Shown piece by piece: positions 3,712-57,449 of a stretch of DNA of 64,000 nucleotides (positions are counted from its first letter, which is position 1; each line of letters starts with the position of its first letter). The DNA lies in assembly GCA_031425655.1 (NCBI GenBank), contig JANPJS010000034.1, forward strand, positions 9,625 through 73,624, read 5' to 3'. The translations under genes were made by a program, and so were the position numbers. Source of the DNA: Abditibacteriaceae bacterium (GTDB lineage: Bacteria; Armatimonadota; Abditibacteriia; Abditibacteriales; Abditibacteriaceae). The notes beneath the pieces are model-generated. The model did not search any database, was not told where the DNA came from, and worked only from the letters and a program-made list of their open reading frames with translations.

Positions 3712-3775
3712 TTTTCTGCCGACAATCGGTCAGGTTTTCTCAGCGGCTTCTTTGCGACTTTGCGTCTTTGCGAGA
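3664..3775. repeat. long hairpin element (CAAAG-word subfamily)
   Basis: Perfect 30-bp inverted repeat: tctcgcaaagacgcaaagtcgcaaagaagc (3664-3693) and gcttctttgcgactttgcgtctttgcgaga (3746-3775). The 52-nt spacer contains the murG stop codon. Confidence 0.9.
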
Positions 3776-3791
3776 GATTAAAAAGGAAACT

Positions 3792-6213: not shown

Positions 6214-9093
6214 TTAATTTGGTTCGGATTTTAGCGGTTTGCCTTCGTCGTCCAACAGCGTCAGCGTGGTGCCGAGGCTTTCGAGCGAACGCAAGCCGGG
6301 TTCGATGGTTTTGCGGTCGCCGACGATGAGAACCGCCATCTTCGACGGATCGAGATATTTGTCGGCGACACGTCTCACGTCGTCCGCAGTTACGGCGCGC
6401 ACCTTTTGAATCACGGTGTTGAAATAATCGTCGGGCAGGCCGTAAATCACCACGTCTTGAAGGCGCCCGGCGATTTGCCCCGGCGTCTCAAAACCCGACG
6501 GATAAGCGCGGATGATGTATTGTTTGGCGAATTCGACCTCGTTTTCCGTCAGGGGAATCGCGCCGCGAATGCCGCCCAATTCTTTGAGAGTCTCAACGAG
6601 GGCTTCTTTCGTGACGGCAGTTTGCACGCCCGCACTGGCCGCGAACGGCCCGGCGCCGCGCCGCATATCGAAATAAGTGAAGGCGCCGTAGCTGTAGCCT
6701 TTGGCCTCGCGCAGGTTCATGTTCAATCTCGACGTGAATTGCCCGCCTAAAATCGCATTCATCACGCGCAGCGGGAAATAATCGGGGTTGGAACGCGGCA
6801 CGCCGACTTGACCGACGGTTATCACCGACTGCGCCGCGCCGGGCTTGTCCACCAAATAAAGCGTGCTTTGCGTGCGTGCCCCCGGCGTGGAAACCTCGGT
6901 TGGCGACACGTCGGCGCGTTGCCATGCGCCGAAAGCGCGTTCCAGAGCCGGAAGCAGCGTGTCCGGCTGCACGTCGCCGACCACGATCAGCGTTGCGTTG
7001 TTCGGACGATAATTCGTCTCGTAGAAGCGGCGCACGTCGGCGATTTGCAGGGCTTTTGTCGAGGCTTCGTCGCCGATAGTCGAGTGGCCATACGGATGAT
7101 CGTTGCCGTAAAGCAGTCGCGCGTAAACGTCTTCGGCGATGGATTCGGCATCATCTTTCTGTTGTTCCAACGAGGCCAGACGGCGGGCGCGCAAGCGTTC
7201 CAGTTCGGCAGTTGCAAAGGCAGGATTCAAAATTACGTCCGCGAAAACACCAAGTGCTTGATCCATGTGGCGTGTGAGCGTCGTCATGGTCGCGCTGCTG
7301 CTGTCCCAACCGGCGCCCACGCCAAGACGCGAGCCGATGGACGACATTTCGTTGGAAATATCCAGCGACGAGCGCGTTTTTGTGCCTTCATCGAGCATAT
7401 CGGCGGTTAAAGTCGCCAATCCGGTGCGCTCTTTCGGGTCGGCACTGGCGCCGCTTTTGACCACTAAATCCATGCTGACAACCGGCAATTCGTGATGCTC
7501 GACAATCAGCACTTCCAAGCCGTTGGCCAAACGCCGCCGCTGAATCTGCGGTAGTTTCAAACTGGGGTCGGGCTGCGGTTTGGGCATTTCGTAAAGCCCT
7601 CCGGTTTTGCCTGCGCTGCTGGAAACCTCCAATGCCGGCTTGGCCGCGACGGCGGGAGGCGGCGCCTGCGGCTGCGTTACAGTCGGCGACGCAAGAGGCG
7701 GTTGAGCCGGCGCGGGATTGGCCGCCGGCTTCGCGGTTTTCGACAATGGCAGCACGCTGAGAGCTAACTTTTTGTCGGTTAAATACGCCTTCGCCACGCG
7801 CTGCACATCGGCGGGCGTGACGCGACGATAACGCGCCAAATCCTGCTCGGCGTAGCCGGGATTATTGAGAAATGTGGCGTAGGAATTGAGTTGGTCGGCC
7901 TTGCCGCGCACAGTTTGCAGGCCGTAAATAAACGACGATTCGATGGTGTTGTAAGCGCGCTCCATTTCGTCGGCGTTCGGAGGAGCGGTTTTCAGCTTTG
8001 CCAGTTCTTCGTTGATGGCGCTTTCCAGTTCAGCGATGGTTTTTCCGGGTTTGGCCGTGGCGATGATTGTGAATTCTCCGGCCAATTCGCGCGAACCGTT
8101 GAAAGCCGACACGTCCTGCGCGATTTGCCGGTCATAGACCAGCGATTTGTAAAGGCGCGAACCTTTGCCGTTGACCATGACGTAAGCCAACATATCGAGC
8201 GCGGCGTCGTCGGGCGCGAATTGCGGGACGGTGTGCCAGTCGAGATACAGTCGTGGCAGTGACACGCGGTCTTCCATTGTCTGGCGGATTTCGCGGTCAA
8301 GCTTTGGCCGCGGCGCTTTAACCGGCTTGATTTTTGGCCCGCCGGGCAAGGGCGCGAAATATTTTTCAACCCACTGGCGAGCCTGCGCCGGTTGGAAGTC
8401 GCCCGCGATGACGAGGCTGGCATTATTCGGCGTGTAATAACGGCGGAAAAAGTCTTTGACTTCGCCCATCGAAGCGCCGGTTACGTCGTCGAGCGAGCCG
8501 ATAGTGAGCCAGTGATACGGATGTGTTTTCGGATACATCGTCTCGGCGATTTTGGCCCAGACTTGTCCGTAAGGCTGATTATCGTAGTTTTGGCGCTTCT
8601 CGTTTTTCACGACTTCGCGCTGGTTGTTGAGCTTGGTTTCGGTCATCGCGTCGGGCAAATAGCCCATGCGGTCGCTTTCGAGCCATAAGGCCAGTTCGAG
8701 AAAATTGGCCGGGACGGTTTCAAAATAGTTGGTGCGGTCGGTGTTGGTAGTGCCGTTAATCGAGCCGCCCGCTTGCTGCAAAGGCTTGAAAAAATCGTCG
8801 TCGTGGTGCTTCGAGCCTTGAAACATCAAATGCTCAAACAAGTGCGCGAAGCCTGTGCGTCCCGGCACTTCATTTTTGGAGCCGACATGATACCATATGT
8901 TGGTCGTCACGAGCGGCGCCGAATGGTCTTCGTGCAAAATGACGCGCAGGCCATTTTTGAGGCGATATTGCTCGAAGCGCAACGGCGGCAGCGGCGCGCT
9001 TGGCGGCGTTTTGGCTTGGACAGTGTTGGGAAGCGTTATCAGAACTGTGAGAGCAAGCGGCCACAGGCCTTTTCGAGGTCGTTGAATGTTCAT
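6214..9093 (-). CDS. secreted two-unit M16 (pitrilysin/insulinase) family zinc peptidase
   Basis: Inverted zinc motif HxxEH in GFAHLFEHLMFQGS. A second M16-like half follows a Pro/Ala-rich linker. The ATG at 9093 has ggag upstream and gives the signal peptide MNIQRPRKGLWPLALTVLITLPNTVQA. The longer track ORF, reaching 9219, is unlikely. Confidence 0.85.
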   Translation of the reverse strand: MNIQRPRKGLWPLALTVLITLPNTVQAKTPPSAPLPPLRFEQYRLKNGLRVILHEDHSAPLVTTNIWYHVGSKNEVPGRTGFAHLFEHLMFQGSKHHDDDFFKPLQQAGGSINGTTNTDRTNYFETVPANFLELALWLESDRMGYLPDAMTETKLNNQREVVKNEKRQNYDNQPYGQVWAKIAETMYPKTHPYHWLTIGSLDDVTGASMGEVKDFFRRYYTPNNASLVIAGDFQPAQARQWVEKYFAPLPGGPKIKPVKAPRPKLDREIRQTMEDRVSLPRLYLDWHTVPQFAPDDAALDMLAYVMVNGKGSRLYKSLVYDRQIAQDVSAFNGSRELAGEFTIIATAKPGKTIAELESAINEELAKLKTAPPNADEMERAYNTIESSFIYGLQTVRGKADQLNSYATFLNNPGYAEQDLARYRRVTPADVQRVAKAYLTDKKLALSVLPLSKTAKPAANPAPAQPPLASPTVTQPQAPPPAVAAKPALEVSSSAGKTGGLYEMPKPQPDPSLKLPQIQRRRLANGLEVLIVEHHELPVVSMDLVVKSGASADPKERTGLATLTADMLDEGTKTRSSLDISNEMSSIGSRLGVGAGWDSSSATMTTLTRHMDQALGVFADVILNPAFATAELERLRARRLASLEQQKDDAESIAEDVYARLLYGNDHPYGHSTIGDEASTKALQIADVRRFYETNYRPNNATLIVVGDVQPDTLLPALERAFGAWQRADVSPTEVSTPGARTQSTLYLVDKPGAAQSVITVGQVGVPRSNPDYFPLRVMNAILGGQFTSRLNMNLREAKGYSYGAFTYFDMRRGAGPFAASAGVQTAVTKEALVETLKELGGIRGAIPLTENEVEFAKQYIIRAYPSGFETPGQIAGRLQDVVIYGLPDDYFNTVIQKVRAVTADDVRRVADKYLDPSKMAVLIVGDRKTIEPGLRSLESLGTTLTLLDDEGKPLKSEPN

Positions 9094-9415: not shown

Positions 9416-10500
9416 GTGTCGAGTCCCAATGCCTTGCGCACCGCTTCAACCGGCACGTCGGCGAATTTTTCGACGTGGCCCATGCGCGTCGGCAAGATGA
9501 AATTCAAACTTTTGCCGCGCGATTTTTTATCCAACGCCATCGCCGCGAAAATTTCGGCTTCTTCCGCGCCCGGCGGCACTTGTGTCGGCAACCCGGCGCG
9601 CTGGAAAAGCCGCGTTTGGCGCGTGATTAGATTATCGGCTTCGTTTGCGGGCATCGCAGTAAGAATCTTCGCCAAGCGCGCCGCGACGGTCATGCCGATG
9701 GCAATCGCTTCGCCGTGCAGCAGTTCTCCGTAACTGGTAATCGCCTCAAAAGCGTGGCCTGCGGTGTGCCCGTAATTGAGAATCGCGCGCCGTCCGATAG
9801 AATCGCTTTCACGCTCGTCCTCGCCCACGACTTCGGCTTTGATTTCACAGCTTCGCGCGATGATTTTTTCCAAAACCGTCATGTCTAAGGCCAGCGCGGC
9901 GTCGAGATTGTCTTCCAGCCACGCGAAAAAATCGGCGTCGGCGATGACGCCATATTTAATCACTTCAGCCAGCCCCGCACGCAATTCTCGCGGCGACAAA
10001 GTTTGCAAGCAAAGCGGGTCAATAATCACTTCGTGGGGTTGATGAAAGGCGCCGATGAGGTTTTTGGCGCGCAGATGGTTGACGCCGGTTTTGCCGCCGA
10101 CGCTGGAATCTACCATCGCCAAAAGCGTAGTCGGCACTTGATAGAAGGGCACGCCGCGCATCCACGTCGCCGCCACGAATCCGGCCCAGTCGCCGACAAC
10201 TCCGCCGCCCACAGCGACAACCGCGCCGCGCCGCGTGAAGCCGTTTTCGGCTAAAGCGTCGTAAGCGCGGCTCGTCCAATCGAGGCTTTTGGAGGCTTCT
10301 CCCGCAGGCGCGTTGAACTGCAAAATGCGCCGATTGGTTTTCAAGCGCGCCGCCAAAGCGTCGGCGTAAAGCGGCGCGACACTTTCGTTGGATAAAACGG
10401 CCAGTTCGTCCGGCCAAAGCTCGCCGCAAGTTTGCAGAATGCCGGCTTCGATGCGAATTGAATAAGAGCGCTCGCCCAGCGGCACATGGATGATGGTCAC
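9412..10500 (-). CDS. aroB: 3-dehydroquinate synthase
   Basis: 362 aa. Contains GGGVVGDWAGFVAATWMRGVPFYQVPTTLLAMVDSSVGGKTGVN and the metal-binding HGEAIAIG region, both typical of AroB. Confidence 0.9.
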   Translation of the reverse strand: MTIIHVPLGERSYSIRIEAGILQTCGELWPDELAVLSNESVAPLYADALAARLKTNRRILQFNAPAGEASKSLDWTSRAYDALAENGFTRRGAVVAVGGGVVGDWAGFVAATWMRGVPFYQVPTTLLAMVDSSVGGKTGVNHLRAKNLIGAFHQPHEVIIDPLCLQTLSPRELRAGLAEVIKYGVIADADFFAWLEDNLDAALALDMTVLEKIIARSCEIKAEVVGEDERESDSIGRRAILNYGHTAGHAFEAITSYGELLHGEAIAIGMTVAARLAKILTAMPANEADNLITRQTRLFQRAGLPTQVPPGAEEAEIFAAMALDKKSRGKSLNFILPTRMGHVEKFADVPVEAVRKALGLDT

Positions 10501-16075: not shown

Positions 16076-19000
16076 ATGAAGAAACTGATTGCCGTTTTTG
16101 CCCTGATGTTAGCCGTCGCCCAATCAAGTCGTGCCGAACTGTCGCCCGCGAATCTGCGCTGCGAATACAAAGTCAATCCTGTGGGCGTTGGCGATGCGCA
16201 GCCGCGTTTGAGCTGGATTGTCGAGTCGAAACAGCGCGCCGAAAAGCAGACGGCGTATCAAATTTTGGCGGCGTCCAGCCTCGAAAATCTCAAGGCCAAA
16301 CGCGGCGATTTGTGGGACAGCGGCCAGATTAAATCGAACGCTACCGCGCAAATCGTATACGGCGGCAAGCCGCTCGGCAGCGCGCAAACCGCGTGGTGGC
16401 AGGTGCGCTCGTGGGACAAAAACGGCAAGTCGTCGCCGTTTAGCGCGCCCGCGCAGTGGACGATGGCGCTGCTCGACCCGGCGACGGAGTGGAAAGCGTC
16501 GTGGATCAACCTCGAAGCGTTGCCGGATCAGCCGAAAAGCGACGGCGCCAGTCCCAAAGGCGCCAACTGGATTTGGTTTCCCGAAGACGATCCCGCCGTC
16601 AGGGCGCCGGTCGCCACGCGTTATTTTCGCCTCGTGGTCAACGTGCCCGCCGATATCGGCATCGCCGCCGCGAAGCTGTCGCTGACCGCCGATGATCGCT
16701 GGACGGTGTGGTTCAACGGCAAGGAACTCGGCAAAAGCGGCACCGATGAATTCGCATGGCGCGACTTTAAAACCTTCGACGTGGCGAAGCTGGTGAAAAC
16801 CGGGCCGAACCTCATCGCTATCGAAGCGACCAACGCGACGGCCAGCCCCGCCGGTTTGCTGGCGAAGCTCACCATCGAATCGGCGCAGTGGGGCAAGCAT
16901 GAATTCGTCAGCGACGCGACGTGGAAAAGCGCGCAAACCGCGCCCGACGGCTGGCAAAACGTCGCTGGCGACGCCGGTTGGCAGTCGGCCAAAGTGCTGG
17001 CGGCGTATGGCGGCGGGCCGTGGATGGACACGGTCGGCGCCGGTGGCGCTAAAACCGGCGCGCCGCCGCCCAGCGCGTTTCTGCGCCGCACTTTTCGGGT
17101 GACAAAGCCGCTGCGCCGCGCCACTGCCTACGCGACTGCGCTCGGACTTTACGAACTGCACGTCAATGGAGCGCGCGTCGGCGACGACGTGTTCACGCCC
17201 GGTTGGACGGATTACAAAAAGCGCGTTTATTATCAAACTTACGACGTGACGCCGCTGCTGAAACAAGGCGCCAATGCAGTCGGCGCGATTTTAGGCGACG
17301 GCTGGGCGACAGGCCACGACGGCAACGGCGGGCGCGACCGCTACGGCTTGCATCGCCCGCATTTTAGCGGGCAAATCGTGCTGGATTACGCCGACGGCAC
17401 GCGCGAAGTCGTCGGTTCCGACACCAATTGGAAAGCCGCTTATGGCCCGATTGTTGAGCAAGACTTGCTCGATGGCGAGTTCTACGACGCCACACAGGAA
17501 CAAGCAGGCTGGGACACGCCGCAATTCGATGACGCCGCGTGGCAAAAGCCCGACATGATCGCCGCGCCGCAGATTAAAATCGAAGCGTATCCGGGCGTTC
17601 CGGTGCGCCGCCAACTTGAACTCAAGCCGAAAAAAATGACTCAGCCGAAGCCGGGCACTTACGTTTTCGATTTGGGACAGAACATGGTCGGCTGGGCGCG
17701 GTTGAACAATATCACGGCGCCGCGCGGCACCAAAATTCGCCTTCGCTTTGCCGAAATGCTGAACGCAGACGGCACGATTTACACCACCAATTTGCGCGGC
17801 GCGCGTTGCATTGACGAATACACTTGTCGCGGCGGCGCGCCTGAAACATGGGAGCCGCGCTTTACGTTTCACGGCTTCCGCTACGTTGAACTCACCGGCG
17901 TTCCAACCGCCACAGCCGACAGCGTGACCGGAATCGTGGTGCACTCCCAAATGCCGATGACAGGCGAATTTGCCTGCTCGAATCCCCTTGTCAACCAACT
18001 GCAAAGCAATATTCAATGGGGTCAGCGCGGCAATTTTCTCGAAGTGCCGACCGACTGCCCGCAACGCGACGAGCGCCTCGGCTGGATGGGTGACGCGCAG
18101 ATTTTCGTGAAAACCTCAACTTACAACGCCGATGTCGCCGGCTTTTTCAGTAAATGGATGGTAGATGTCGAAGACGGAATGCGCGGCGACGCTTTCCCCG
18201 ATGTGGCGCCCGACATTTGCTGCGGCGCGGGAACTCCGGCCTGGGCCGATGCCGGCGTGATCGTGCCGTGGACGATTTATCAGGTTTACGGCGATACGCG
18301 CATTCTCGAAAAGCACTACGGCGCGATGGCGCGCTACATCGAATGGATTCGCAAAAGCAACCCGGATTTGATCTGGAAAAATCGCGGCTCGGATTACGGC
18401 GACTGGCTTTCCATCGCCGCCGACACGCCCAAAGACGTGCTGGGAACCGCTTATTTCGCGTATTCAACCAGCCTTTTAGCCAAAATCGCGCACGCTCTCG
18501 GCAAAAACGACGACGCGCAAAAATACGAGGCGCTTTTCAACGGCATTAAAGCCGCTTTCAACAAGAATTTCGTGACCGCCGATGGACGCATCAAAGGCGA
18601 CACGCAAACCGATTACGTCTTGGCGTTGCGCTTCAATTTGCTGCCCGACGACAAGCGCGCTCAGGCCGCGCAACATCTGGTGGACGACATCGCCAAAAAG
18701 GGCAATCACCTTTCGACCGGCTTCGTTGGCGTCGGCTATTTGAATCCGGTTCTCACGCAAACCGGTCACGGCGATGTGGCCTATCAACTGCTGTTGCAGG
18801 ACACTTTTCCCTCGTGGGGCTACTCGATTCGCCAAGGCGCAACCACGATTTGGGAGCGTTGGGACGGCTATCGCGCCGACAAAGGCTTTCAAGACCCCGG
18901 CATGAATTCGTTCAACCATTATTCACTCGGCTCGGTCGGGCAGTGGATGTTTGAAAGCGTGGCCGGAATTGACGCCGACCCAAACCAGCCGGCCTTTTCG

Positions 19001-19297
19001 CACGTCATTTTGCGACCGCAGCCGGGCGGCGGCCTGACTTTCGCGCGCGGCGGCTTCGATTCGATACGCGGGCGCATCGAAAGCGGCTGGAAAATCGAAA
19101 ACGGCGTCTTTTCCTACAACGTGACGATTCCCGCCAACGCGACGGCGACGCTGTATTTGCCCGCCGCGCTGACCGCGAAAATCACCGAAGGCGGCAAAGC
19201 AGCGGATAAAGCCGACGGCGTGCAGTTCGTCAAGCACGAAAACGGCTCCGCGATTTACGAACTCGGTTCGGGCAGCTACGCTTTCGCGGTGCGATGA
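16076..19297 (+). CDS. alpha-L-rhamnosidase, glycoside hydrolase family 78
   Basis: Signal peptide, then LRCEYKVNPVGVGDAQPRLSW and the catalytic-domain hallmark EVPTDCPQRDERLGWMGDAQIF. 1073 aa. Confidence 0.9.
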   Translation: MKKLIAVFALMLAVAQSSRAELSPANLRCEYKVNPVGVGDAQPRLSWIVESKQRAEKQTAYQILAASSLENLKAKRGDLWDSGQIKSNATAQIVYGGKPLGSAQTAWWQVRSWDKNGKSSPFSAPAQWTMALLDPATEWKASWINLEALPDQPKSDGASPKGANWIWFPEDDPAVRAPVATRYFRLVVNVPADIGIAAAKLSLTADDRWTVWFNGKELGKSGTDEFAWRDFKTFDVAKLVKTGPNLIAIEATNATASPAGLLAKLTIESAQWGKHEFVSDATWKSAQTAPDGWQNVAGDAGWQSAKVLAAYGGGPWMDTVGAGGAKTGAPPPSAFLRRTFRVTKPLRRATAYATALGLYELHVNGARVGDDVFTPGWTDYKKRVYYQTYDVTPLLKQGANAVGAILGDGWATGHDGNGGRDRYGLHRPHFSGQIVLDYADGTREVVGSDTNWKAAYGPIVEQDLLDGEFYDATQEQAGWDTPQFDDAAWQKPDMIAAPQIKIEAYPGVPVRRQLELKPKKMTQPKPGTYVFDLGQNMVGWARLNNITAPRGTKIRLRFAEMLNADGTIYTTNLRGARCIDEYTCRGGAPETWEPRFTFHGFRYVELTGVPTATADSVTGIVVHSQMPMTGEFACSNPLVNQLQSNIQWGQRGNFLEVPTDCPQRDERLGWMGDAQIFVKTSTYNADVAGFFSKWMVDVEDGMRGDAFPDVAPDICCGAGTPAWADAGVIVPWTIYQVYGDTRILEKHYGAMARYIEWIRKSNPDLIWKNRGSDYGDWLSIAADTPKDVLGTAYFAYSTSLLAKIAHALGKNDDAQKYEALFNGIKAAFNKNFVTADGRIKGDTQTDYVLALRFNLLPDDKRAQAAQHLVDDIAKKGNHLSTGFVGVGYLNPVLTQTGHGDVAYQLLLQDTFPSWGYSIRQGATTIWERWDGYRADKGFQDPGMNSFNHYSLGSVGQWMFESVAGIDADPNQPAFSHVILRPQPGGGLTFARGGFDSIRGRIESGWKIENGVFSYNVTIPANATATLYLPAALTAKITEGGKAADKADGVQFVKHENGSAIYELGSGSYAFAVR

Positions 19298-19304
19298 AAG
19301 GAAC

Positions 19305-19886
19305 ATGAGTGAACAAGGCGCCTTTGACCTCGCGCACGAGTGGACAGGCGATGCTTTAAGCGAATCGGAATCGGCGGCGTTTCAAGAGGGCAAAGCCAAA
19401 GCTCTGCAAAAGCTGTTGCCTTACGCGCATCCTTCTTCTAACCAAGAGGCGGCATCGGTTGTTTTGGAACTGAATGGTAGCGAATTCGATTTCCGTGTCG
19501 GCGAGAGATTTGAAGTGATGGTGTTGGTGCCTGCGAATCGTGCCGTAGCACACTTGCACACTCATCCGGATGCGGAGCCGCAGAGCTTGGAAGATTGGCA
19601 GGAATTTCTCCCAGTCCATGCCGTTCGCCAAGCGCACGTCATTGCGCCCAACGCGACGTATTCGCTCCATAAACCACCGGCATGGGAAAATACGGTGCGT
19701 CCGATTCGTCGCAGAGAGATCGCCGTCGCCTATTTTGAGGTTTATCAAGCTGCTCAACTGGACGCGCTGCGGAGAGGCGAAAACGCGGAGAACTTGGAAG
19801 TGGACGAAGCAGCGGCGCGGAACATGGCCGCCCGTTTTGGCATACTTCATTGCGTTGGCATCCGACGAGGAGAGGAAAGGCCATGA
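19305..19886 (+). CDS. hypothetical protein with JAB/MPN-like motif
   Basis: Starts 7 nt after the GH78 stop. Contains AHLHTHPDAEPQSLEDWQEF, which resembles the JAMM signature HxHP-x6-S-xx-D (cf. RadC AHNHPSGDPTPSREDIELT) but with a loop one residue shorter. Confidence 0.55.
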   Translation: MSEQGAFDLAHEWTGDALSESESAAFQEGKAKALQKLLPYAHPSSNQEAASVVLELNGSEFDFRVGERFEVMVLVPANRAVAHLHTHPDAEPQSLEDWQEFLPVHAVRQAHVIAPNATYSLHKPPAWENTVRPIRRREIAVAYFEVYQAAQLDALRRGENAENLEVDEAAARNMAARFGILHCVGIRRGEERP

Positions 19887-20415: not shown

Positions 20416-20656
20416 ATGCTGAAACACCTTCTCGCGCTTTTAATTTCGTTCGTTGTCGCGGCGCCTTCGATTCAATCCGAGGCCACATCGAAAGCAGTTG
20501 GAAGCTCGAAAATGGTGCCTTTTCCTGCAACGTGACGATTCCCGCCAATACGACGGCGACGCTGCAAAATCCGACGGCGTGCAATTCGTAAAGCAGGAAA
20601 ACGGCGCCGCGATTTATGAGCTTGGTTCGGGGACTTATTCGTTCGAGGTGCGATGC
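20416..20656 (+). pseudogene. remnant of a GH78-type gene: signal-peptide-like start fused to a degraded, frameshifted copy of the rhamnosidase 3' end
   Basis: 20458-20656 aligns with 19047-19297. Compare FDSIRGHIESSWKLENGAFSCNVTIPANTTATL with FDSIRGRIESGWKIENGVFSYNVTIPANATATL, and DGVQFVKQENGAAIYELGSGTYSFEVR with DGVQFVKHENGSAIYELGSGSYAFAVR. The copy has an internal deletion, a frameshift and a lost stop (tga to tgc). The ATG at 20416 encodes MLKHLLALLISFVVAAPS. Confidence 0.8.
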
Positions 20657-27423: not shown

Positions 27424-29191
27424 ACGGTCGCCCCAATTTGGCGCAAAGCTCGCTTTCGCAGGCTCCTTTTTCAAAAGCCGATTCTTCGTTAGCAGGCTTT
27501 GCGCGGTTGTCGCCTTGTTTTTAGGCGCAGGTCAGGTGAAATGTGCCGAAATTCCGCGCCCGACGCTGGTGCGCGATGTCGTCGGCGTAACGCACGTCGC
27601 CGGGAAATACAACTTTACCGACAGCGATTTTCTCAACGAAGGCGCCGATAAAATCCTCGAACTCGGCTCGCGCGTGATTAAAGTCTGGTTTATGAAACCA
27701 GACACGTCATATCCCTTCAACTCGCAGTGGCCGCCAGCAAAAAACTTGGTTGAACTGGCGCAAACGCCTTATTTTAAAACGCTTTTTGCCAAGCCGTTTA
27801 CAACTTTCGTGCTGGAAACTTACGTGCCGGGGCGCGGCGATCATTACTACAAAAACGGCATGACGGCGGCTCAGATTCAAACCGAAAGCGACGACTTTTA
27901 CACGCTGACAAAGCACCTTTTGCAAACCTACAAAGGCAGCGGCAAAACTTTTGTTTTGCAAAACTGGGAAGGCGATTGGTCGCTGATTGGCGCCGGCTCC
28001 AATGATGAGCCGACGCAAACACAAATTGACGGCATGATTCAATGGCTGAACGCACGTCAGGACGGCGTGGACAAAGCGCGTCGTGAGTTGGGCGCAACCG
28101 GTGTGACCGTCGCGCACGCGGCGGAAGTTAATTTGATCAAGCGCGCGATGGACGGCAAAAAATCGGTCACCAACGACGTTTTGCCCAAAACGCACTGCGA
28201 TTTATATTCGACTTCGGCCTACGATATTCAAGACAATGCCAAAACGCTGATGGCCGGTTTGGATTATTTAGCTTCTAAAGCGCCGGACAGCGCGCTTTAC
28301 GGCGCCAAAAACATCTTCGTCGGCGAGTTTGGCTTTCCCGAAAACGGCGCCGGAATCGGGCCGCAAAAACAACGCGACAAAACGCGCGCGGCCTTGCAGA
28401 CGGCTTTGCGCTGGGGCGTGCGCTATGCGCTTTACTGGGAACTATATTGCAACGAAAAAGCGCGCGAATTTGAAGGCAAACCGCGAAACGAAGATATGCG
28501 CGGCTTCTGGCTGATACGCCCCGATGGGTCGAAGGCGCCGCTGTGGGATTACTTGAAAAAGATTATGGATTGGAACGTGGACGAGGCAGCACTGCCTTTT
28601 ATCGAAGACATTCGCGCGTTTGAGGCGGCGGATGCGAAGGCGTTTCCCGCGCCCAATCAAATTGTCTTCGTCGGCAGTTCCAGCTTTACCAACTGGGCGA
28701 ACATGGCGCGCGATTTAGCGCCGTTTCCTGTCGTGCGGCGCGGTTTTGGCGGCTCGCAAATGGACGACAGCTTGCGCTACGCCGGGCGCGTCGTGATTCC
28801 CTATAAACCCAAAATGGTCGTGGTTTACGCGGGCGATAACGACCTTGCGAATGGTCGCACGCCGCAGGCCATACTTGATGATTTCAAAGCGATGGTTGCC
28901 AATATTCACGCGGCGCTGCCCGACACCAAAATCGCTTATCTTTCCATTAAACCGAGCATCGCGCGCTGGCATTTAATCGAGAAAATTCGCCAGGCCAATG
29001 GTCTAATCCAAAACTGGACGATTCAGGATGCGCGCCTTTCTTACATTGACATTTTCCCGGCCACGCTTGGCGCGGATAATCAGCCAAACCCCGACATTTT
29101 TCTCGAAGATAATCTGCACATCAACCAAAAGGGCTACGATTTGTGGGCGCAGGTCATCAAAGCGCATTTAGCGCAGAACTTTCAACCTTAA
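27413..29191 (+). CDS. secreted bifunctional-looking protein: clan GH-A-like TIM barrel + C-terminal SGNH/GDSL esterase
   Basis: The in-frame ATG at 27413 gives a signal peptide; the track ORF start 27245 overlaps the previous gene. VLQNWEGDW and FVGEFGFPE resemble the GH-A acid/base and nucleophile. SGNH blocks are present: VFVGSSSF, GFGGSQ, VYAGDND, DNLHINQKGY. Confidence 0.75.
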   Translation: MIFKRSPQFGAKLAFAGSFFKSRFFVSRLCAVVALFLGAGQVKCAEIPRPTLVRDVVGVTHVAGKYNFTDSDFLNEGADKILELGSRVIKVWFMKPDTSYPFNSQWPPAKNLVELAQTPYFKTLFAKPFTTFVLETYVPGRGDHYYKNGMTAAQIQTESDDFYTLTKHLLQTYKGSGKTFVLQNWEGDWSLIGAGSNDEPTQTQIDGMIQWLNARQDGVDKARRELGATGVTVAHAAEVNLIKRAMDGKKSVTNDVLPKTHCDLYSTSAYDIQDNAKTLMAGLDYLASKAPDSALYGAKNIFVGEFGFPENGAGIGPQKQRDKTRAALQTALRWGVRYALYWELYCNEKAREFEGKPRNEDMRGFWLIRPDGSKAPLWDYLKKIMDWNVDEAALPFIEDIRAFEAADAKAFPAPNQIVFVGSSSFTNWANMARDLAPFPVVRRGFGGSQMDDSLRYAGRVVIPYKPKMVVVYAGDNDLANGRTPQAILDDFKAMVANIHAALPDTKIAYLSIKPSIARWHLIEKIRQANGLIQNWTIQDARLSYIDIFPATLGADNQPNPDIFLEDNLHINQKGYDLWAQVIKAHLAQNFQP

Positions 29192-29247
29192 GCCGCACCG
29201 TCGGGAACCGCATTTGCGCCCGCGTGTCGTTGAATGCGAACTTATTT

Positions 29248-29288: not shown

Positions 29289-31100
29289 ATGGCCCGAAAA
29301 AACGACCGCAATCGCGGCGGCGATAACAACGATTTCGACTCCTCCGACGACATCAATTTCAGCAACAGCCCGTTTCAAGGCTTGCCCGAAACGCATTTGC
29401 AATCGTCGGCTCTGCTCGACGAAATTCTGACGAATTATCCGCACCCCGACACGCGGGCGCGGCAGTATTTAATGCTGTTGCGTCATCAGTTGGCAACCGA
29501 CGACAATCAACTCGAAGAAGCACGTCAGGCGCTTCAGGAATTCGAGGAGGTTTATAACAAGCTCACGCAACCGGCCAACCGCATCGGCGTTTACATCGCC
29601 AAATTAGATGGCGACAAGCCGAAAAGCAAAAAGCGTAAGCTGCCGTTTCAATCGCAGGAAGCGGCGCCCAAAGAAAACCATCTCATTGCGGTTGGCGATC
29701 AGGAGTTCATCGTCGGCGCCGATCCGATGCTTGAAGACAGTGACTTCGCCGCCGGCACGCGCGTGACGGTCAACGAAGCCTACGTTATCGTCGGCGATTT
29801 AGGCCCGGCGACCAACGGCCCGGTCGTGAAAATCAGCGAAGTTTTGGACGATGGTCGTCTGCGCGTGGCGATGGACTCTCAGGGAATGCAGTCGCGTCTT
29901 GTCTATCGCGGCGATTCGTTGAAAGAATTGGATTTAAAAGCCGGCGACGAAGTTCGCATGGAGCCGAATTTCAAAGTCGCGCTCGAACGCTTCGGGCAAA
30001 GCGAAAACAAAGAGTATTTTCTGGACACGGTGCCGGAGCTTCCCTGGGAGAAAATCGGCGGTCAGGAAGAAGCGATTGAGCTTATCAAAGACACCATCGA
30101 ATTGCCGCTGATTTACCCCGAACTGTTCGAGCGTTTCGGCAAAAAGCCGCTTAAAGGAATCCTGCTTTACGGCCCGCCGGGCTGCGGTAAAACGCTCATC
30201 GGTAAAGCGACGGCTTATAATGTCACGCGCGCCTTCAACGACCGCACCGGGCAAGAGCTGAAAGAGTATTTTATGCTCATCAACGGCCCGCAGATTCTCA
30301 ATATGTGGCTGGGCGAAACCGAGCGGCAGATTCGGGAAATCTTTCAGGTCGCGCGCGAAAAAGCCAAGTCGGGCCACTTGGTTTTCATCTTTATTGACGA
30401 AGCCGAAAGCATTTTACGCACGCGCAGCGCCGGGCGCGGCGGCTATATGCAAAACACCATCGTGCCGATGTTTTGCGCTGAAATGGATGGACTTGTCGCT
30501 TTAGAAAACGTTATCGTGATCCTGACCAGCAATCGCCCGGATTACATTGATCCGGCGATTTTGCGCCCCGAACGCATTGATCGCAAAGTCAAAATCCGCC
30601 GCCCGGACAAAGCCAGCGCACGCCAGATTTTCGATATTTATCTGCGCAAAGACTTGCCGTATTCGCCGGATTTGTTGAAAGAGTTCGATGGCGATGTCGA
30701 AAAAGCGCGGCAGGGCTTGATAGATCACGCGATGGAAAAAGTGTTCCGCAAAGCGCCGGACACCGAATTTGTCGAGGTTTACACGCGCAGCGGCGGCGTC
30801 GAAACGCTGCACTTCAAAGACTTGCTCAGCGGCGCCTTAATCATGAGTTTGGTGGAGCGCGCCAAAGACTTCGCCATCAAGCGCAGCATTGACGTGAAGA
30901 GTTCCAACGAAGGCATCAGCCGCGACGACATGGCGCGCAGCATCGAAAGCGAGTTCAAGGAAAACGAGATTTTCCCCAAGACCGATAATCTCGAAGATTG
31001 GCTGAAATTGCTCGATTACGAGCCGGAAAACGTGGTGACCATCAAGCCGATTCGTCCCGGCGCGAAGGAAAAATACACCGCGCGCAACGGCGTGATTTAA
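29289..31100 (+). CDS. arc: Mpa/ARC-type AAA+ ATPase (proteasome-associated ATPase homologue)
   Basis: ATG at 29289 (MARKNDRN...). Coiled-coil-like N-terminus, OB-like middle, Walker A LLYGPPGCGKTL, Walker B IFIDEAES. Regions collinear with my recollection of M. tuberculosis Mpa include NVIVILTSNRPDYIDPAILRPERIDRKVKIRRPD, EFDGD..., HFKDLLSGALIMSLVERAKDFAIKRSI and EFKENEIFPKTDNLEDW. It ends ...KYTARNGVI rather than GQYL. Confidence 0.85.
   Translation: MARKNDRNRGGDNNDFDSSDDINFSNSPFQGLPETHLQSSALLDEILTNYPHPDTRARQYLMLLRHQLATDDNQLEEARQALQEFEEVYNKLTQPANRIGVYIAKLDGDKPKSKKRKLPFQSQEAAPKENHLIAVGDQEFIVGADPMLEDSDFAAGTRVTVNEAYVIVGDLGPATNGPVVKISEVLDDGRLRVAMDSQGMQSRLVYRGDSLKELDLKAGDEVRMEPNFKVALERFGQSENKEYFLDTVPELPWEKIGGQEEAIELIKDTIELPLIYPELFERFGKKPLKGILLYGPPGCGKTLIGKATAYNVTRAFNDRTGQELKEYFMLINGPQILNMWLGETERQIREIFQVAREKAKSGHLVFIFIDEAESILRTRSAGRGGYMQNTIVPMFCAEMDGLVALENVIVILTSNRPDYIDPAILRPERIDRKVKIRRPDKASARQIFDIYLRKDLPYSPDLLKEFDGDVEKARQGLIDHAMEKVFRKAPDTEFVEVYTRSGGVETLHFKDLLSGALIMSLVERAKDFAIKRSIDVKSSNEGISRDDMARSIESEFKENEIFPKTDNLEDWLKLLDYEPENVVTIKPIRPGAKEKYTARNGVI
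31030..31100 (+). repeat. direct repeat copy 1: last 71 nt of the arc gene
   Basis: Identical to 31530-31600 at 68 of 71 positions. Differences are at 31076 c/t, 31087 a/g and 31099 a/g. The copies are exactly 500 bp apart. Confidence 0.95.
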
Positions 31101-31103
31101 CAA

Positions 31104-31145
31104 CAGAGCGGGCCAACGCATTATGCAGCGGCCCGCTCTGTTTTT
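31104..31145 (+). terminator. intrinsic terminator after arc copy-1 end
   Basis: cagagcgggcc ... ggcccgctctg followed by ttttt. Confidence 0.75.
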
Positions 31146-31176
31146 GAAGGGCTATAATCAATAATGGTGATGCCAG

Positions 31177-31530
31177 ATGAAGCAAATTCTTTTCTCACTT
31201 TTGCGTTTTGCAAACCTTGCATACATGGGTTTTTCTGACCTTCGGCAATGGGAAAAAATCAGGGCACAGGGTTCGGCGCGTTTCATTTTTTCGCGCAGTA
31301 TTGTGATGACCTGTTGGTGGAGCGCGCTTATCGGTTCTTCCTTTTACATTTGGGGAGACCCTATTTCCTTCAGCCCCAAAGGCATTTTGATTTTATTTGG
31401 GTGTTCCTATCCAATGGGTTTGATTTCGGCCTTCGGAGCATGGGGCGATTGTGAAACGTGGTATCTCAAAAAGCGGAATGAAGAATCCAAGCCTGCCACG
31501 GACAAAAACGGCAACTCCGCAAACGCCTGA
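31177..31530 (+). CDS. small hypothetical membrane protein (117 aa) carried on the low-GC insert
   Basis: Two or three hydrophobic segments (FIFSRSIVMTCWWSALIGSSFYIW, GILILFGCSYPMGLISAFGAWG). My hand count gives about 45 % GC over 31141-31500. TATAAT at 31153-31158 lies upstream. The stop tga (31528-31530) abuts repeat copy 2. Confidence 0.55.
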   Translation: MKQILFSLLRFANLAYMGFSDLRQWEKIRAQGSARFIFSRSIVMTCWWSALIGSSFYIWGDPISFSPKGILILFGCSYPMGLISAFGAWGDCETWYLKKRNEESKPATDKNGNSANA

Positions 31531-31600
31531 CGTGGTGACCATCAAGCCGATTCGTCCCGGCGCGAAGGAAAAATATACCGCGCGCAGCGGCGTGATTTGA
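31530..31600 (+). repeat. direct repeat copy 2: orphaned duplicate of the arc 3' end (encodes ...VVTIKPIRPGAKEKYTARSGVI-stop)
   Basis: See 31030-31100. It is followed by the convergent-gene terminator at 31619-31648. Confidence 0.95.
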
Positions 31601-31618
31601 GGCTGCCGGAGCAAAAGC

Positions 31619-31648
31619 AAACGGGAACAGAAAAGTCTGTTCCCGTTT
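31619..31648. terminator. bidirectional intrinsic terminator
   Basis: aaacgggaacag aaaagt ctgttcccgttt with an A-rich 5' flank and a T-rich 3' flank. It lies between repeat copy 2 and the stop of the convergent 31663-32202 gene. Confidence 0.75.
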
Positions 31649-31662
31649 GCGTTTGTGTCATT

Positions 31663-32202
31663 TTAGCGCGCTTCAACGAGATTGTTGAGCAGATTTTTAA
31701 GTGCAACGTCCGCGTGCGCATCGGGCGCGAGACCGCCGAAGCCGCGAAAAACGATGCGATCCTGAATATGGCTGGAAACCGTGTTGACTTCCATTTCTAC
31801 GGGAAACAGCGCCAACAGCGATGCCTGAGAAAGCAATTTTCCCAAAAATCCGACCTGATCCGGCCCTTCGAGATGCACTTCGATGCCCTCATCGCGTTTG
31901 CGGGCAAGGCGGAATGCGGTTAATTTAGGCATTCCGGTGCCGCTTAACAGCGATTTAGTCTGCGCCAGCGCCACGTAATCCATATATTCAGGCGTGGCAT
32001 CGCTATGTTTGAAATCGAGACGAAAAGTCGCATCCCACCGCCGCGTGCTGTCTTGAATCGCCTTCCCGGATAGCACGGAGACTTTGGAATCCGCCAGACC
32101 CGAAAACAGAAAAACCATCCAGTGAGGATGAGGAAAAAAACCGTAAATGCTCAGCTCGTAGGAGCCGTTGGCAAGATGTGAAAGCGAGGAACGCGGCGTC
32201 AT
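31663..32202 (-). CDS. hypothetical protein (possibly ACT-like regulatory fold)
   Basis: 179-aa ORF with plausible coding composition. The segment LEGPDQVGFLGKLLSQASLLALFPVEMEVNT is reminiscent of ACT domains. No firm motif. Confidence 0.55.
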   Translation of the reverse strand: MTPRSSLSHLANGSYELSIYGFFPHPHWMVFLFSGLADSKVSVLSGKAIQDSTRRWDATFRLDFKHSDATPEYMDYVALAQTKSLLSGTGMPKLTAFRLARKRDEGIEVHLEGPDQVGFLGKLLSQASLLALFPVEMEVNTVSSHIQDRIVFRGFGGLAPDAHADVALKNLLNNLVEAR

Positions 32203-39382: not shown

Positions 39383-39454
39383 ATTTCACCACAAAGACAC
39401 GAAGACACAAAGAGCTTTCAGTTTCTTTGTGTCTTCGTGTCTTTGTGGTGAAAT
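39383..39454. repeat. long hairpin element (CAAAG-word subfamily)
   Basis: Perfect 31-bp arms atttcaccacaaagacacgaagacacaaaga (39383-39413) and tctttgtgtcttcgtgtctttgtggtgaaat (39424-39454). It abuts the Uma2 stop codon at 39455. Confidence 0.9.
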
Positions 39455-40021
39455 TCACTCGAAAATTTCTTTTATCGGCAACTCGAATCCCGGCAAAATT
39501 TCGCCGCCGGGCACGATGTCGCCTTCGATGTAAGTGACGGGCGCGCCGTCGGAGCGCCGAACGATCAGTGCGCGGCGTTGCGGTTCGACCAACCAAACGG
39601 CTTTGGTGCCCGCTTCCAAATACAATCGCACTTTGTCTTCAATCTCAAACCACAAATCGCCCGGCGAAACGACTTCGACGGCCAAAGTCGGCGGGCCATC
39701 AATAAAGCTTTCGGTGCGCTGACCAACCAACCGCGCCGATTCTAAAAAAGACACATCCGGCCCGCGCACTAAATCGGGATTATGAAACAAGCGATAACCC
39801 GCTTCTACACTGACTCGTCCCAAGCCGTGCTTGCGAACAAAGGCCAACAAATGCGAAAAAATAATGCCCGCGTATTCTCCGTGATCAAAGCCAACCGGCA
39901 TAAGGTGCACCACTTTTCCTGCGATTAATTCCGTGTGTTTCGGTGGGCCGGAAGCGAAATACTCTTCGGCTGTCAGCAGTTTGTCCGCGATGTTTGGTGC
40001 CTCTAAAAGCGCGTTTGCCAT
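39455..40021 (-). CDS. Uma2-family (DUF820) endonuclease
   Basis: TAEEYF...ELIAGKVV.MPVG..H...PDVSF...PTLAVEVVSPGD...DKVRLYLEAGTKAVWLVEP matches the Uma2/PD-(D/E)xK pattern. Confidence 0.75.
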   Translation of the reverse strand: MANALLEAPNIADKLLTAEEYFASGPPKHTELIAGKVVHLMPVGFDHGEYAGIIFSHLLAFVRKHGLGRVSVEAGYRLFHNPDLVRGPDVSFLESARLVGQRTESFIDGPPTLAVEVVSPGDLWFEIEDKVRLYLEAGTKAVWLVEPQRRALIVRRSDGAPVTYIEGDIVPGGEILPGFELPIKEIFE

Positions 40022-54940: not shown

Positions 54941-55000
54941 ACACAAAGGCGCAAAGGCACAAAGAGAAAATTCTTTGTGTCTTTGTGCCTTTGTGTTTAA
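54937..55000. repeat. long hairpin element (CAAAG-word subfamily) overlapping the glgA stop
   Basis: ttaaacacaaaggcgcaaaggcacaaagag (54937-54966) pairs with ttctttgtgtctttgtgcctttgtgtttaa (54971-55000). The two non-Watson-Crick positions are G.U pairs only in the plus-strand (glgA) transcript. Confidence 0.9.
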
Positions 55001-55008
55001 TTGAATTT

Positions 55009-57273: not shown

Positions 57274-57426
57274 CTCTCGCAAAGACGTCCTGCCCAAAGG
57301 GCGCCCGGCGCAAAGAGTTTTTGAACGGGACGTAATGGGCAAGGCGGTGAATCGCATACCATATCCGCGCAACCGCCTTGCCCTTCTTCAAAAAAACTCT
57401 TTGCGCCTTGGCGTCTTTGCGAGAGA
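57274..57426. repeat. 153-bp compound palindrome (CAAAG-word subfamily) between convergent genes
   Basis: Outer arms tctctcgcaaagacg / cgtctttgcgagaga. Middle arms ggcgcaaagagttttt (57307-57322) / aaaaactctttgcgcc (57392-57407). Inner arms gggcaaggcggt (57337-57348) / accgccttgccc (57372-57383). Confidence 0.9.
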
Positions 57427-57449
57427 CAAAAACGTCTCTGCGGTGAAAA

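What the first reader, a model, noticed from the sequence alone, without database searches (positions are those of the whole stretch)
31030..31600. 71-bp duplication of the Mpa/ARC 3' end encloses a terminator and a low-GC membrane-protein ORF
31030-31100 and 31530-31600 match at 68 of 71 positions and lie exactly 500 bp apart. Copy 1 finishes the arc ORF (...KEKYTARNGVI-taa). Copy 2 is an orphan that would encode ...KEKYTARSGVI-tga. Copy 2 is followed by the bidirectional terminator shared with the convergent gene, so it looks like the ancestral gene end.
The enclosed segment carries its own terminator (31104-31145), a TATAAT box (31153-31158) and a 117-aa ORF whose stop abuts copy 2. My hand count gives about 45 % GC for 31141-31500, against roughly 55-65 % around it.
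In Mpa the extreme C-terminus is the proteasome-docking tail. An event that replaces exactly this tail could therefore matter functionally.
Basis: seen in the sequence. Interest (0 to 1): 0.7.

Follow-up and report, generated by a model that had tools for sequence, protein, structure and literature searches.

The report
Orphan arc gene-end marks small insertion
A 500-bp piece carrying a small membrane-protein gene was inserted at the end of a conserved AAA-ATPase gene (arc) in an Abditibacteriaceae genome and left a 71-bp spare copy of the gene's end; this is a real but fairly ordinary recombination scar, and similar scars recur at the same gene end in related genomes.

Summary
Positions 31030-31100 and 31530-31600 match at 68 of 71 bases, exactly 500 bp apart. 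Copy 1 ends the arc gene and copy 2 is an orphan.

The closest relative (L081, ARC 98% identical) and a more distant one (L088) have arc followed directly by the copy-2 terminator (T2) and the convergent 179-aa gene.

The insert is not random DNA:
- Its terminator (T1) is homologous to the terminator that follows arc in other Abditibacteriaceae (L020, L059, L085).
- ORF117 belongs to a very rare two-hydrophobic-segment protein family that also sits next to arc in L081 and L090.

No integrase or transposon features were found. Orphan arc ends of 24-170 bp flank unrelated cargo in four other genomes. A second scar of the same kind lies in this window, at a rhamnosidase gene.

Best reading: homology-guided illegitimate or single-crossover insertion of the equivalent locus from a relative.

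The encoded ARC tail changes by one residue (S to N). It has no GQYL motif, and no proteasome genes lie in the window, so the proposed functional effect is not supported. Interest is modest.

The parts
29289..31100 (+). arc gene: an Mpa/ARC-type AAA ATPase of 603 aa. The listed ORF starts at the TTG at 29214, but the ATG at 29289 matches the homologues.
   Evidence: Pfam finds AAA plus Prot_ATP_ID_OB_N and Prot_ATP_ID_OB_C. It matches M. tuberculosis Mpa chains at E = 1e-94 to 1e-97 over residues 74-592. All called homologues are about 603 aa.
31030..31100 (+). Repeat copy 1: the last 71 nt of the intact arc gene, including the TAA stop.
   Evidence: It matches copy 2 at 68 of 71 positions.
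31096..31148 (+). T1: an intrinsic-terminator hairpin followed by TTTTT. It is homologous to the terminator that follows arc in L020, L059 and L085.
   Evidence: The fold is -31 kcal/mol with z = -6.2. It is 80% identical over 46 nt to L020, at the same position after the stop codon. The 20-nt pattern occurs only there, in 2 of 84 loci, and the fuller 27-nt form occurs once in the window.
31153..31176 (+). Conserved TATAATCAA -10-like box (31153-31158) and a GGTGATG ribosome-binding region upstream of ORF117.
   Evidence: About 80% identical to the region upstream of the homologous genes in L081 (8290-8339) and L090 (598-624). The consensus scan found no -35 box.
31177..31530 (+). ORF117 ('X'): a small protein with two hydrophobic segments, from a very rare uncharacterised family with the motif WEK[IV][RK]A[KQ]G.
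   Evidence: It is 30% identical to each half of the 223-aa gene of L081 and 43% identical to P0130. Only 5 hits were found among 1.84 billion representative proteins. The family alignment is and the hydropathy profile. There is no Pfam or NCBIfam match.
31530..31600 (+). Repeat copy 2: an orphan arc 3' end with a TGA stop. It is inferred to be the original gene end.
   Evidence: It is followed by T2 and p179, exactly as the intact arc is in L081 and L088.
31612..31655 (.). T2: a bidirectional terminator hairpin between the orphan and the convergent p179 gene. It is orthologous to the arc terminator of L081 and L088.
   Evidence: -31.6 kcal/mol on the + strand, -30.2 on the - strand.
31663..32202 (-). 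p179: a conserved hypothetical gene convergent with arc. Together with copy 2, T2 and about 70 bp upstream (to about 32273) it forms a block colinear with L081 7532-8278.
   Evidence: There is no Pfam or NCBIfam match.

Best explanation
The ancestral arrangement of this lineage was arc, then T2, then the convergent p179 gene.

DNA from the equivalent locus of a related Abditibacteriaceae genome was added at the end of arc by recombination guided by arc homology. In that donor, arc was followed by T1, a TATAAT promoter and the small membrane-protein gene X.

The two joints:
- One joint lies in the last, highly conserved nucleotides of arc (...GCGGCGTGATTT, identical in several lineages).
- The other joint links the 3' flank of X to a GTGGTG about 69-71 nt upstream of the arc stop. 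This joint is illegitimate, mediated by microhomology.

Because the second joint falls upstream of the first, the 71 nt between them are present twice.

A variant gives the same product: a circularised fragment [arc 3' end-T1-P-X] from a near-identical strain integrates by a single Campbell-type crossover.

Consequences:
- arc stays intact, with one S-to-N change, and now terminates at T1.
- X is expressed from its own promoter, and its transcript would run through the orphan to T2.
- The 71-bp direct repeats allow the unit to be lost again by homologous recombination.

What is shown and what is inferred:
- Shown: the repeat, the empty sites, the T1 homology, the X homologues next to arc, the recurrence elsewhere, and the absence of recombinase or transposon features.
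- Inferred: the donor arrangement, the order of events and the exact recombination pathway.
For: Empty sites:
- L081 and L088 have arc-T2-p179 without the unit.

The insert comes from an arc locus:
- T1 is positionally and sequence-homologous to the arc terminators of L020, L059 and L085.
- X with its conserved promoter lies next to arc/p179 in L081.
- In L090 an orphan arc end is followed by a hairpin, TATAATCAA and a second X gene.

The repeat ends exactly at the stop codon, which is where homology between lineages ends.

A possible microhomology: the sequence after the X stop in L081 (GCCTGAaGTGGTGtC) matches the window joint (GCCTGAcGTGGTGaCC).

Recurrence with variable repeat length and unrelated cargo:
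- L021: 81 bp, a dehydrogenase gene.
- L055: about 170 bp, two genes.
- L054: 30 bp.
- L013: 24 bp, a DUF+HNH gene pair whose 67%-identical homologue follows the orphan.
- Four of 10 dispersed direct repeats in 79 arc loci touch the last 200 bp of arc, which is 2.3% of the sequence.
- A second scar of the same kind lies in this window at a GH78 rhamnosidase gene.

Experimental precedent: in an E. coli assay for homology-facilitated illegitimate recombination (HFIR), 56 of 60 recombinants were single-crossover integrations that duplicated 109-950 bp of the homologous segment. HFIR joints there carry 3-10 bp of microhomology (PMC3240628).

No integrase was found in any cargo, and a crude motif scan found no tyrosine-recombinase box II.
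Against: - No genome with the exact donor arrangement arc-T1-P-X was found.
- The two copies are identical over their first 46 nt. A Campbell crossover with a divergent (about 80% identical) T1-clade donor is therefore excluded, and the two-joint version needs a replication or template-switch step that is only inferred.
- The arc gene shows no mosaic tract relative to L081: identity is a uniform 91% or so.
- Classical HFIR deletes recipient DNA rather than duplicating it (PMC3240628).
- The GTGGTG microhomology rests on a single comparison near a contig end.
- The polarity (gain here rather than loss in L081 and L088) rests on parsimony only.
- Four of the six repeat left ends fall between -62 and -81, which hints at some site preference.
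Confidence: 0.55

Rival explanations
1. Site-specific integration. The 500-bp unit is a degenerate or trans-mobilised integrative cassette (CIME-like) whose attachment site is the arc 3' end. Copy 1 is attL and copy 2 is attR.
For: - Direct repeats flank the cargo, and one of them completes the target gene.
- The native terminator lies distal to the insert.
- The same gene end is hit in at least six lineages.
- The left ends of four repeats cluster at -62 to -81.
- CIMEs are defined as elements that retain attL and attR but have lost their integration genes (PMC6323972).
Against: - There is no recombinase gene in the insert or in any of the four other cargos.
- A crude motif scan found no box-II motif in the window or in 90 loci.
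- Repeat lengths range from 24 to 170 bp.
- T1 and X are native arc-neighbourhood sequences, not element-specific DNA.
- The cargos of L013 and L090 are homologues of the gene that follows the orphan.
- An unrelated gene in this window carries the same kind of scar.
Confidence: 0.12
2. The duplicated arrangement is ancestral. L081 and L088 lost the 500 bp through recombination between the two 71-bp repeats, so the 'empty sites' are secondary deletions.
For: - 71-bp direct repeats at 96% identity are good substrates for deletion.
- The L081 gene end carries the ancestral state at all three variable positions, so it could be a hybrid of the two copies.
- X homologues lie near arc in L081 as well.
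Against: - It needs two independent precise losses (L081 and the much more distant L088) against one gain.
- An unselected orphan that old should have decayed, like those of L021 or the rhamnosidase scar (85-87% identity with indels). This one is 96% identical and has no indels.
- It does not explain how the duplicate arose in the first place.
Confidence: 0.15
3. A purely local rearrangement. An L081-like ancestor underwent tandem duplication of [arc 3' end-T2-p179-promoter-X] through GTGGTG microhomology, and later deletions left the present order.
For: - The blocks [arc end-T2-p179 + 70 bp] and [promoter-X] are in opposite order in L081 and in the window.
- GTGGTG follows the X stop in L081.
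Against: - T1 has no counterpart in L081 but is homologous to arc terminators of another clade, and this model does not explain it.
- X is only 30% identical to the L081 protein, whereas the flanking genes are 82-98% identical.
- It needs at least three events.
Confidence: 0.08
4. An assembly artefact: two co-existing strains with different arc-downstream regions were concatenated in the metagenome-assembled genome.
For: - All changes in copy 2 are silent or stop-to-stop, as expected for a functional allele of another strain.
- The source is probably a metagenome-assembled contig (P0121: a 95.8-kb NCBI contig).
Against: - The X | copy-2 junction shares only about 6 nt with arc. That is too short for a k-mer join.
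- The same architecture occurs in independent assemblies, including a complete long-read chromosome (L021) and an ENA contig (L090).
- The second scar in this window has a decayed orphan with a 52-bp deletion, which cannot be a live allele.
Confidence: 0.04

Closest known systems
Single-crossover (Campbell-type) insertion-duplication and homology-facilitated illegitimate recombination (HFIR)
   Same: - Incoming DNA that shares homology on one side only is added next to the homologous gene.
- A partial copy of the homologous segment flanks the insert. In E. coli these duplications were 109-950 bp.
- Illegitimate joints carry 3-10 bp of microhomology (PMC3240628).
   Different: - This is a natural scar in an uncultured phylum, not a laboratory construct.
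- The duplication is short (71 bp) and ends exactly at the stop codon.
- Classical HFIR deletes recipient DNA instead of duplicating it.
- The route of DNA entry is unknown.
Integrative elements and CIMEs inserted in the 3' end of a protein-coding gene (for example the ICESt1/ICESt3 family at fda; that example is from my own knowledge)
   Same: - Direct repeats made of the gene's 3' end flank the cargo.
- The gene is restored.
- The old end and its native terminator are displaced distally.
- CIMEs lack integration genes (PMC6323972).
   Different: - No recombinase was found anywhere near.
- Repeat length varies among cases.
- The cargo is only 429 bp and is made of sequences native to the arc neighbourhood.
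- An unrelated gene in the same window shows the same kind of scar.
Transposon, IS or MITE insertion with target-site duplication
   Same: A short insert flanked by a direct duplication of target sequence.
   Different: - The duplication is 71 bp, whereas target-site duplications are typically under about 15 bp (my own knowledge).
- There are no terminal inverted repeats at the insert ends.
- There is no second copy of the insert in the window.
Mpa/ARC proteasomal ATPase of Actinobacteria (the gene whose end is duplicated)
   Same: The same double-OB plus AAA architecture, and full-length homology to Mpa.
   Different: - The C-terminus is ...GVI, not GQYL.
- No Pup/UBact-ligase or proteasome genes lie nearby in Abditibacteriaceae, although 32 Armatimonadota relatives have a Pup-ligase-family gene directly downstream of arc, most of them with proteasome-subunit genes too.

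Membership tests
Mpa/ARC proteasome-associated AAA ATPase | Tandem OB domains followed by one AAA module, with full-length similarity to Mpa | tested here: met
   Pfam finds Prot_ATP_ID_OB_N, Prot_ATP_ID_OB_C and AAA. The protein matches Mpa chains 5kwa and 7px9 at E = 1e-94 to 1e-97.
Mpa/ARC proteasome-associated AAA ATPase | C-terminal GQYL (penultimate Tyr) proteasome-docking motif | tested here: not met
   The protein ends ...KEKYTARNGVI. All Abditibacteriaceae homologues examined end in [GS]VI.
Mpa/ARC proteasome-associated AAA ATPase | Genomic linkage to Pup/UBact-ligase and 20S proteasome genes | tested here: not met
   tblastn found no homologue in the 64-kb window. A Pup-ligase-family gene lies downstream of arc in 32 Armatimonadota loci, with proteasome-subunit and UBact genes in some.
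Site-specific integrative element (genomic island / IME / CIME) in a gene 3' end | Cargo flanked by direct repeats, one of which completes the target gene, with the native end displaced distally | tested here: met
Site-specific integrative element (genomic island / IME / CIME) in a gene 3' end | A tyrosine or serine recombinase in the element, or a cognate element able to act in trans | tested here: not met
   The 429-bp insert holds only ORF117. Pfam finds no recombinase in the cargos of L013, L021, L054 or L055. A crude motif scan found no plausible box-II motif in the window or in 90 loci. A recombinase acting in trans from elsewhere in the genome cannot be tested here.
Site-specific integrative element (genomic island / IME / CIME) in a gene 3' end | Constant att boundaries among independent insertions | tested here: not met
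   Repeat lengths are 24, 30, about 66, 71, 81 and about 170 bp.
Homology-guided illegitimate / single-crossover insertion | The insert derives from the homologous locus of a related genome (shared anchor gene) | tested here: met
   T1 is homologous to the arc terminators of L020, L059 and L085. X with the same promoter lies next to arc/p179 in L081. The cargos of L013 and L090 are homologues of the gene that follows the orphan.
Homology-guided illegitimate / single-crossover insertion | Microhomology of 3-10 bp at the non-homologous joint | tested here: inconclusive
   GTGGTG follows the X stop in L081 and starts the repeat in arc. The donor's own flank is not available.
Homology-guided illegitimate / single-crossover insertion | An empty site exists in close relatives | tested here: met
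   L081 and L088.
Transposable element with target-site duplication | Terminal inverted repeats, a short target-site duplication, and multiple copies | tested here: not met
   The only inverted repeat within the insert is the T1 hairpin. The duplication is 71 bp. No other copy of 31101-31529 occurs in the window or in 86 loci.

The most novel reading that the evidence does not exclude
Gene 3' ends in Abditibacteriota and Armatimonadota, arc above all, might be dedicated landing sites for small, recombinase-less gene cassettes. Each cassette would carry a terminator, a promoter and one or a few genes, and would always regenerate the stop codon of the target gene. The cassettes would be moved by a recombinase acting in trans or by a mechanism not yet described, and the orphan gene ends would be the att scars of such a system.
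Probability: 0.1. Interest if true: 0.7.

Novelty: new member of a known kind. Interest (0 to 1): 0.35.

Why it matters
- It is a clean natural example, with an empty site in a close relative, of how a small self-contained gene (terminator, promoter, ORF) is added at the end of a conserved gene without damaging that gene.
- Orphan 3' ends can serve as a searchable footprint of such additive recombination in uncultured phyla.
- The enrichment at arc marks the point where the ancestral cluster of arc, Pup-ligase-family and proteasome genes was broken in Abditibacteriaceae. That point has since become a variable region.
- It also gives genomic context to a very rare small membrane-protein family.
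- It does not change what is known about ARC function.

Tried and rejected
Searches that found nothing or little:
- The word-indexed homologue search for ORF117 found nothing. The exhaustive HMMER search was needed.
- Exact-sequence look-ups of ORF117, p179 and P0121 found no record.
- The metagenome scan with the X-family alignment returned only one distant proteobacterial homologue, L087.
- Pfam and NCBIfam gave nothing for X or p179.

Uninformative result:
- Single-sequence AlphaFold of ORF117 gave pLDDT 55.8. It was not used and no fold search was run.

Ideas tested and dropped:
- I looked for a donor-derived mosaic tract in arc relative to L081. Identity is a uniform 91% or so, with no such tract.
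- I considered that the 153-158-aa ORFs downstream of arc in L020, L084 and L085 might be X homologues. They show no similarity.
- I first argued that both copies share a derived G at repeat position 8. I dropped this because L088 also has G there.
- I considered an integron attC reading of T1. The left arm fits RYYYAAC by eye, but the right arm does not fit GTTRRRY, and there is no intI and no cassette array.
- A Campbell crossover with a divergent T1-clade donor is rejected, because the first 46 nt of the two copies are identical.
Full report
**1. The observation**

The repeat finder reports 31030-31098 and 31530-31598 as a 69-nt direct repeat, 67/69 identical, with spacing 500. Carried through the stop codons, this is 68/71.

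Only three direct-repeat families of 35 nt or more occur in the 64-kb window. The three mismatches are at repeat positions 47, 58 and 70.

- Copy 1 is the end of a 603-aa AAA ATPase. Its probable start is the ATG at 29289, not the TTG at 29214 that begins the mechanical ORF.
- Copy 2 is an orphan.
- T1 (31096-31148) is a stable hairpin with a T-run: -31 kcal/mol, z = -6.2.
- T2 (31612-31655) is a stable hairpin on both strands.
- GC of 31101-31529 is 47.6% against 56.7% for the window, which puts it in the lowest 0.3% of windows of that size.

**2. Organism and gene**

The arc protein has Pfam AAA plus both proteasomal-ATPase OB domains. It aligns with M. tuberculosis Mpa over residues 74-592 at E = 1e-94 to 1e-97.

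The nearest genomes are Abditibacteriaceae, phylum Abditibacteriota. The protein ends ...ARNGVI, and relatives end in [GS]VI. The GQYL motif is absent.

In 32 Armatimonadota loci, arc is followed by a Pup-ligase-family gene, and proteasome-subunit and UBact genes also occur downstream. No Abditibacteriaceae locus has these genes within 4 kb, and the 64-kb window has none.

**3. Empty sites**

The closest ARC in the protein collection is P0001 (98% identical). It lies on a 9-kb contig, L081, which also carries the p179 homologue P0122 (82%).

In L081, arc is followed by a 66-bp spacer holding a hairpin orthologous to T2, then the convergent p179 gene. The 500-bp unit is absent.

L088 is a short contig with a 59%-identical p179. 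It has the same convergent arc end and a T2-like hairpin. On a tree of the C-terminal 142 residues, L088 branches outside the group that contains the window, L081, L082 and the T1-bearing genomes. That tree rests on a short segment and is a weak guide.

Arc-T2-p179 is therefore the older arrangement of this lineage, and copy 2 with T2 is the displaced original end.

**4. What the insert is**

T1 is not arbitrary.
- The blastn alignment of the window to L020 (ARC 85% identical) runs through the stop codon to 31146.
- T1 aligns with the hairpin directly after arc in L020, L059 and L085, and these hairpins have different stem sequences around the same loop.
- The 20-nt pattern GCATTRTGCANNGGCCCGCT occurs only at that position, in 2 of 84 loci. 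The longer 27-nt form of the T1 pattern occurs only at T1 in the window.

ORF117 is a real gene.
- It is 30% identical to each half of a 223-aa gene in L081 that lies just beyond p179.
- The TATAAT box, the GGTGATG ribosome-binding region and the first codons are about 80% identical between the window and L081.
- An exhaustive HMMER search of 1.84 billion representative proteins gave only 5 hits. These include a 114-aa protein at 43% identity (P0130) and two-unit fusions (P0131, P0133).
- The family shares WEK[IV][RK]A[KQ]G, two hydrophobic segments and a charged tail. ORF117 aligns to within a few residues of its stop, so it is full length.
- The L081 homologue has the same low GC, 47.8%, so low GC is a property of the gene family here.

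**5. The same architecture elsewhere**

P0130 lies on a 643-bp contig, L090. There the X gene is followed, about 95 bp later, by an orphan arc end (TIKPIRPGQREKYGANRGVI-TGA). After that come a strong hairpin, TATAATCAA and a second X-like start.

I searched each arc locus with its own gene end and found downstream orphans in four genomes:

| Locus | Repeat | Cargo |
|---|---|---|
| L021 | 81 bp, 87% identical, with indels | a 2-hydroxyacid dehydrogenase gene |
| L055 | about 170 bp | two genes, 3.9 kb |
| L054 | 30 bp | not characterised |
| L013 | 24 bp | includes a DUF+HNH gene pair; a 67%-identical homologue of that pair follows the orphan |

All of these repeats except L054 end at the stop codon.

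As a control, 79 loci (678 kb) contain 10 dispersed direct repeats of at least 24 bp and at least 85% identity within 5 kb. Four of them touch the last 200 bp of arc, which is 2.3% of the sequence.

The same window holds a second scar at an unrelated gene. The last 251 bp of a GH78 rhamnosidase gene (19046-19296) recur at 20457-20655, at about 85% identity with a 52-bp deletion. Both copies end at the stop codon, and 1.16 kb with a 193-aa ORF lies between them.

**6. Mechanism**

- No recombinase domain occurs in any cargo.
- A crude box-II motif scan of the window and 90 loci found nothing plausible.
- The insert has no terminal inverted repeats and no second copy.
- Repeat lengths vary from 24 to 170 bp, while the right end is fixed at the stop codon. 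That is where related lineages stop being homologous.
- The cargo is repeatedly what lies downstream of arc in some relative.

These features fit recombination guided by arc homology better than a dedicated site-specific system.

Two versions are compatible with the data.

(a) Two-joint insertion.
- One joint is in the conserved last nucleotides of arc. GCGGCGTGATTT is identical in the window, L020, L085 and L086.
- The other joint is at a GTGGTG about 69-71 nt upstream of the stop. L081 has GCCTGAaGTGGTGtC after its X stop, against GCCTGAcGTGGTGaCC at the window joint.
- The recipient's 71 nt between the joints are duplicated.
- This explains why the first 46 nt of the copies are identical and why all the differences lie near the 3' end.

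(b) Single crossover of a circularised fragment from a near-identical strain.
- This was the dominant outcome in an E. coli HFIR assay: 56 of 60 clones, with duplications of 109-950 bp (PMC3240628).
- A Campbell crossover with a divergent (about 80% identical) donor is excluded by the identity of the left 46 nt.

The arc gene shows no mosaic tract relative to L081. The donor arrangement arc-T1-promoter-X was not found in any genome, so it remains an inference.

**7. Consequences**

- The encoded ARC tail differs by one residue (S to N at position -4). Taken with the absent docking motif and the absence of proteasome genes in the window, the proposed functional significance is not supported.
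- arc now terminates at T1.
- X has its own conserved promoter-like box, and its transcript would include the orphan as a 3' UTR up to T2. This is inferred.
- The 71-bp repeats make the unit liable to loss by homologous recombination, which would regenerate an L081-like site. This is also inferred.

**8. Rivals**

- Site-specific CIME-like element: 0.12.
- Ancestral duplication with loss in L081 and L088: 0.15.
- Local tandem duplication plus deletions: 0.08.
- Assembly artefact: 0.04.

Each is set out, with its evidence, in the rival explanations.

**9. Verdict**

It is best filed as a natural homology-guided insertion-duplication scar, a new member of a known kind.

The added value lies in four things: the empty site, the origin of the insert in an arc locus, the recurrence at arc across the phylum, and the second scar in this window.

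Interest is modest (0.35). A dedicated cassette system is not excluded, but I put its probability at about 0.1.

Noticed in passing
window 19046-19296 and 20457-20655: A second scar of the same kind. The last 251 bp of a GH78 alpha-L-rhamnosidase gene (16076-19297) recur 1.4 kb downstream as a decayed orphan (about 85% identical, with a 52-bp deletion). Both copies end at the stop codon. A 1.16-kb insert with a 193-aa ORF of unknown family (19305-19886) lies between them.
   Followed up: partly
L021 5687-5767 / 6874-6950; L055 5489-5659 / 9448-9618; L054 5600-5629 / 6239-6268; L013 5759-5782 / 7395-7418; L090 about 459-524: Orphan copies of the arc 3' end lie downstream of arc in four other Abditibacteriota or Armatimonadota genomes, each with different cargo. 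One more orphan follows an X-family gene in L090. Four of 10 dispersed direct repeats in 79 arc loci involve the last 200 bp of arc.
   Followed up: partly
L022-L058 (32 loci), 0-4 kb downstream of arc: In Chthonomonadales, Capsulimonadaceae and other Armatimonadota, arc is followed by a Pup-ligase-family gene, with proteasome-subunit genes in most loci and UBact genes in some. Abditibacteriaceae loci and this 64-kb window lack them, so the cluster has been broken right after arc in this family.
   Followed up: partly
L081 8313-8984 (P0131) and P0133: Some members of the rare X family are head-to-tail fusions of two units (223 aa and 201 aa). The family has only 5 hits among 1.84 billion representative proteins. 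An 88-aa homologue sits on a proteobacterial contig (L087 1082-1348).
   Followed up: partly
window 27428-27545 versus L081 2995-4047: Between the periplasmic-binding-protein gene and the GDSL-lipase gene, L081 carries about 1 kb that the window lacks, including a 199-aa Hist_deacetyl-family ORF. This is another indel between the two close relatives.
   Followed up: no
window 3749-3783, 39424-39458, 54972-55006, 57398-57432: A 35-nt motif built on TCTTTGCG-type units (TCTTTGCGACTTTGCGTCTTTGCGAGAGA...) occurs four times in the window at 63-89% identity. Its nature is unknown.
   Followed up: no
L026 5922-5992 and 7791-7861: A 71-bp direct repeat (94% identical) starts 116 bp after the arc stop in a Chthonomonadaceae genome. 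It was not examined.
   Followed up: no
L013 6589-7304 and 7459-8157; L054 6430-7095: The genes next to the orphan arc ends include HNH-endonuclease genes: one as a separate DUF+HNH pair and one as a fused 232-aa gene. A Uma2-family putative endonuclease gene is also present. These are selfish-looking genes in the variable region after arc.
   Followed up: no
L020 5815-5836: The arc gene of this long-read metagenome-assembled genome has a frameshift in its last codons (...RETHFA* instead of ...REKH..SGVI*). This is probably a sequencing indel.
   Followed up: no
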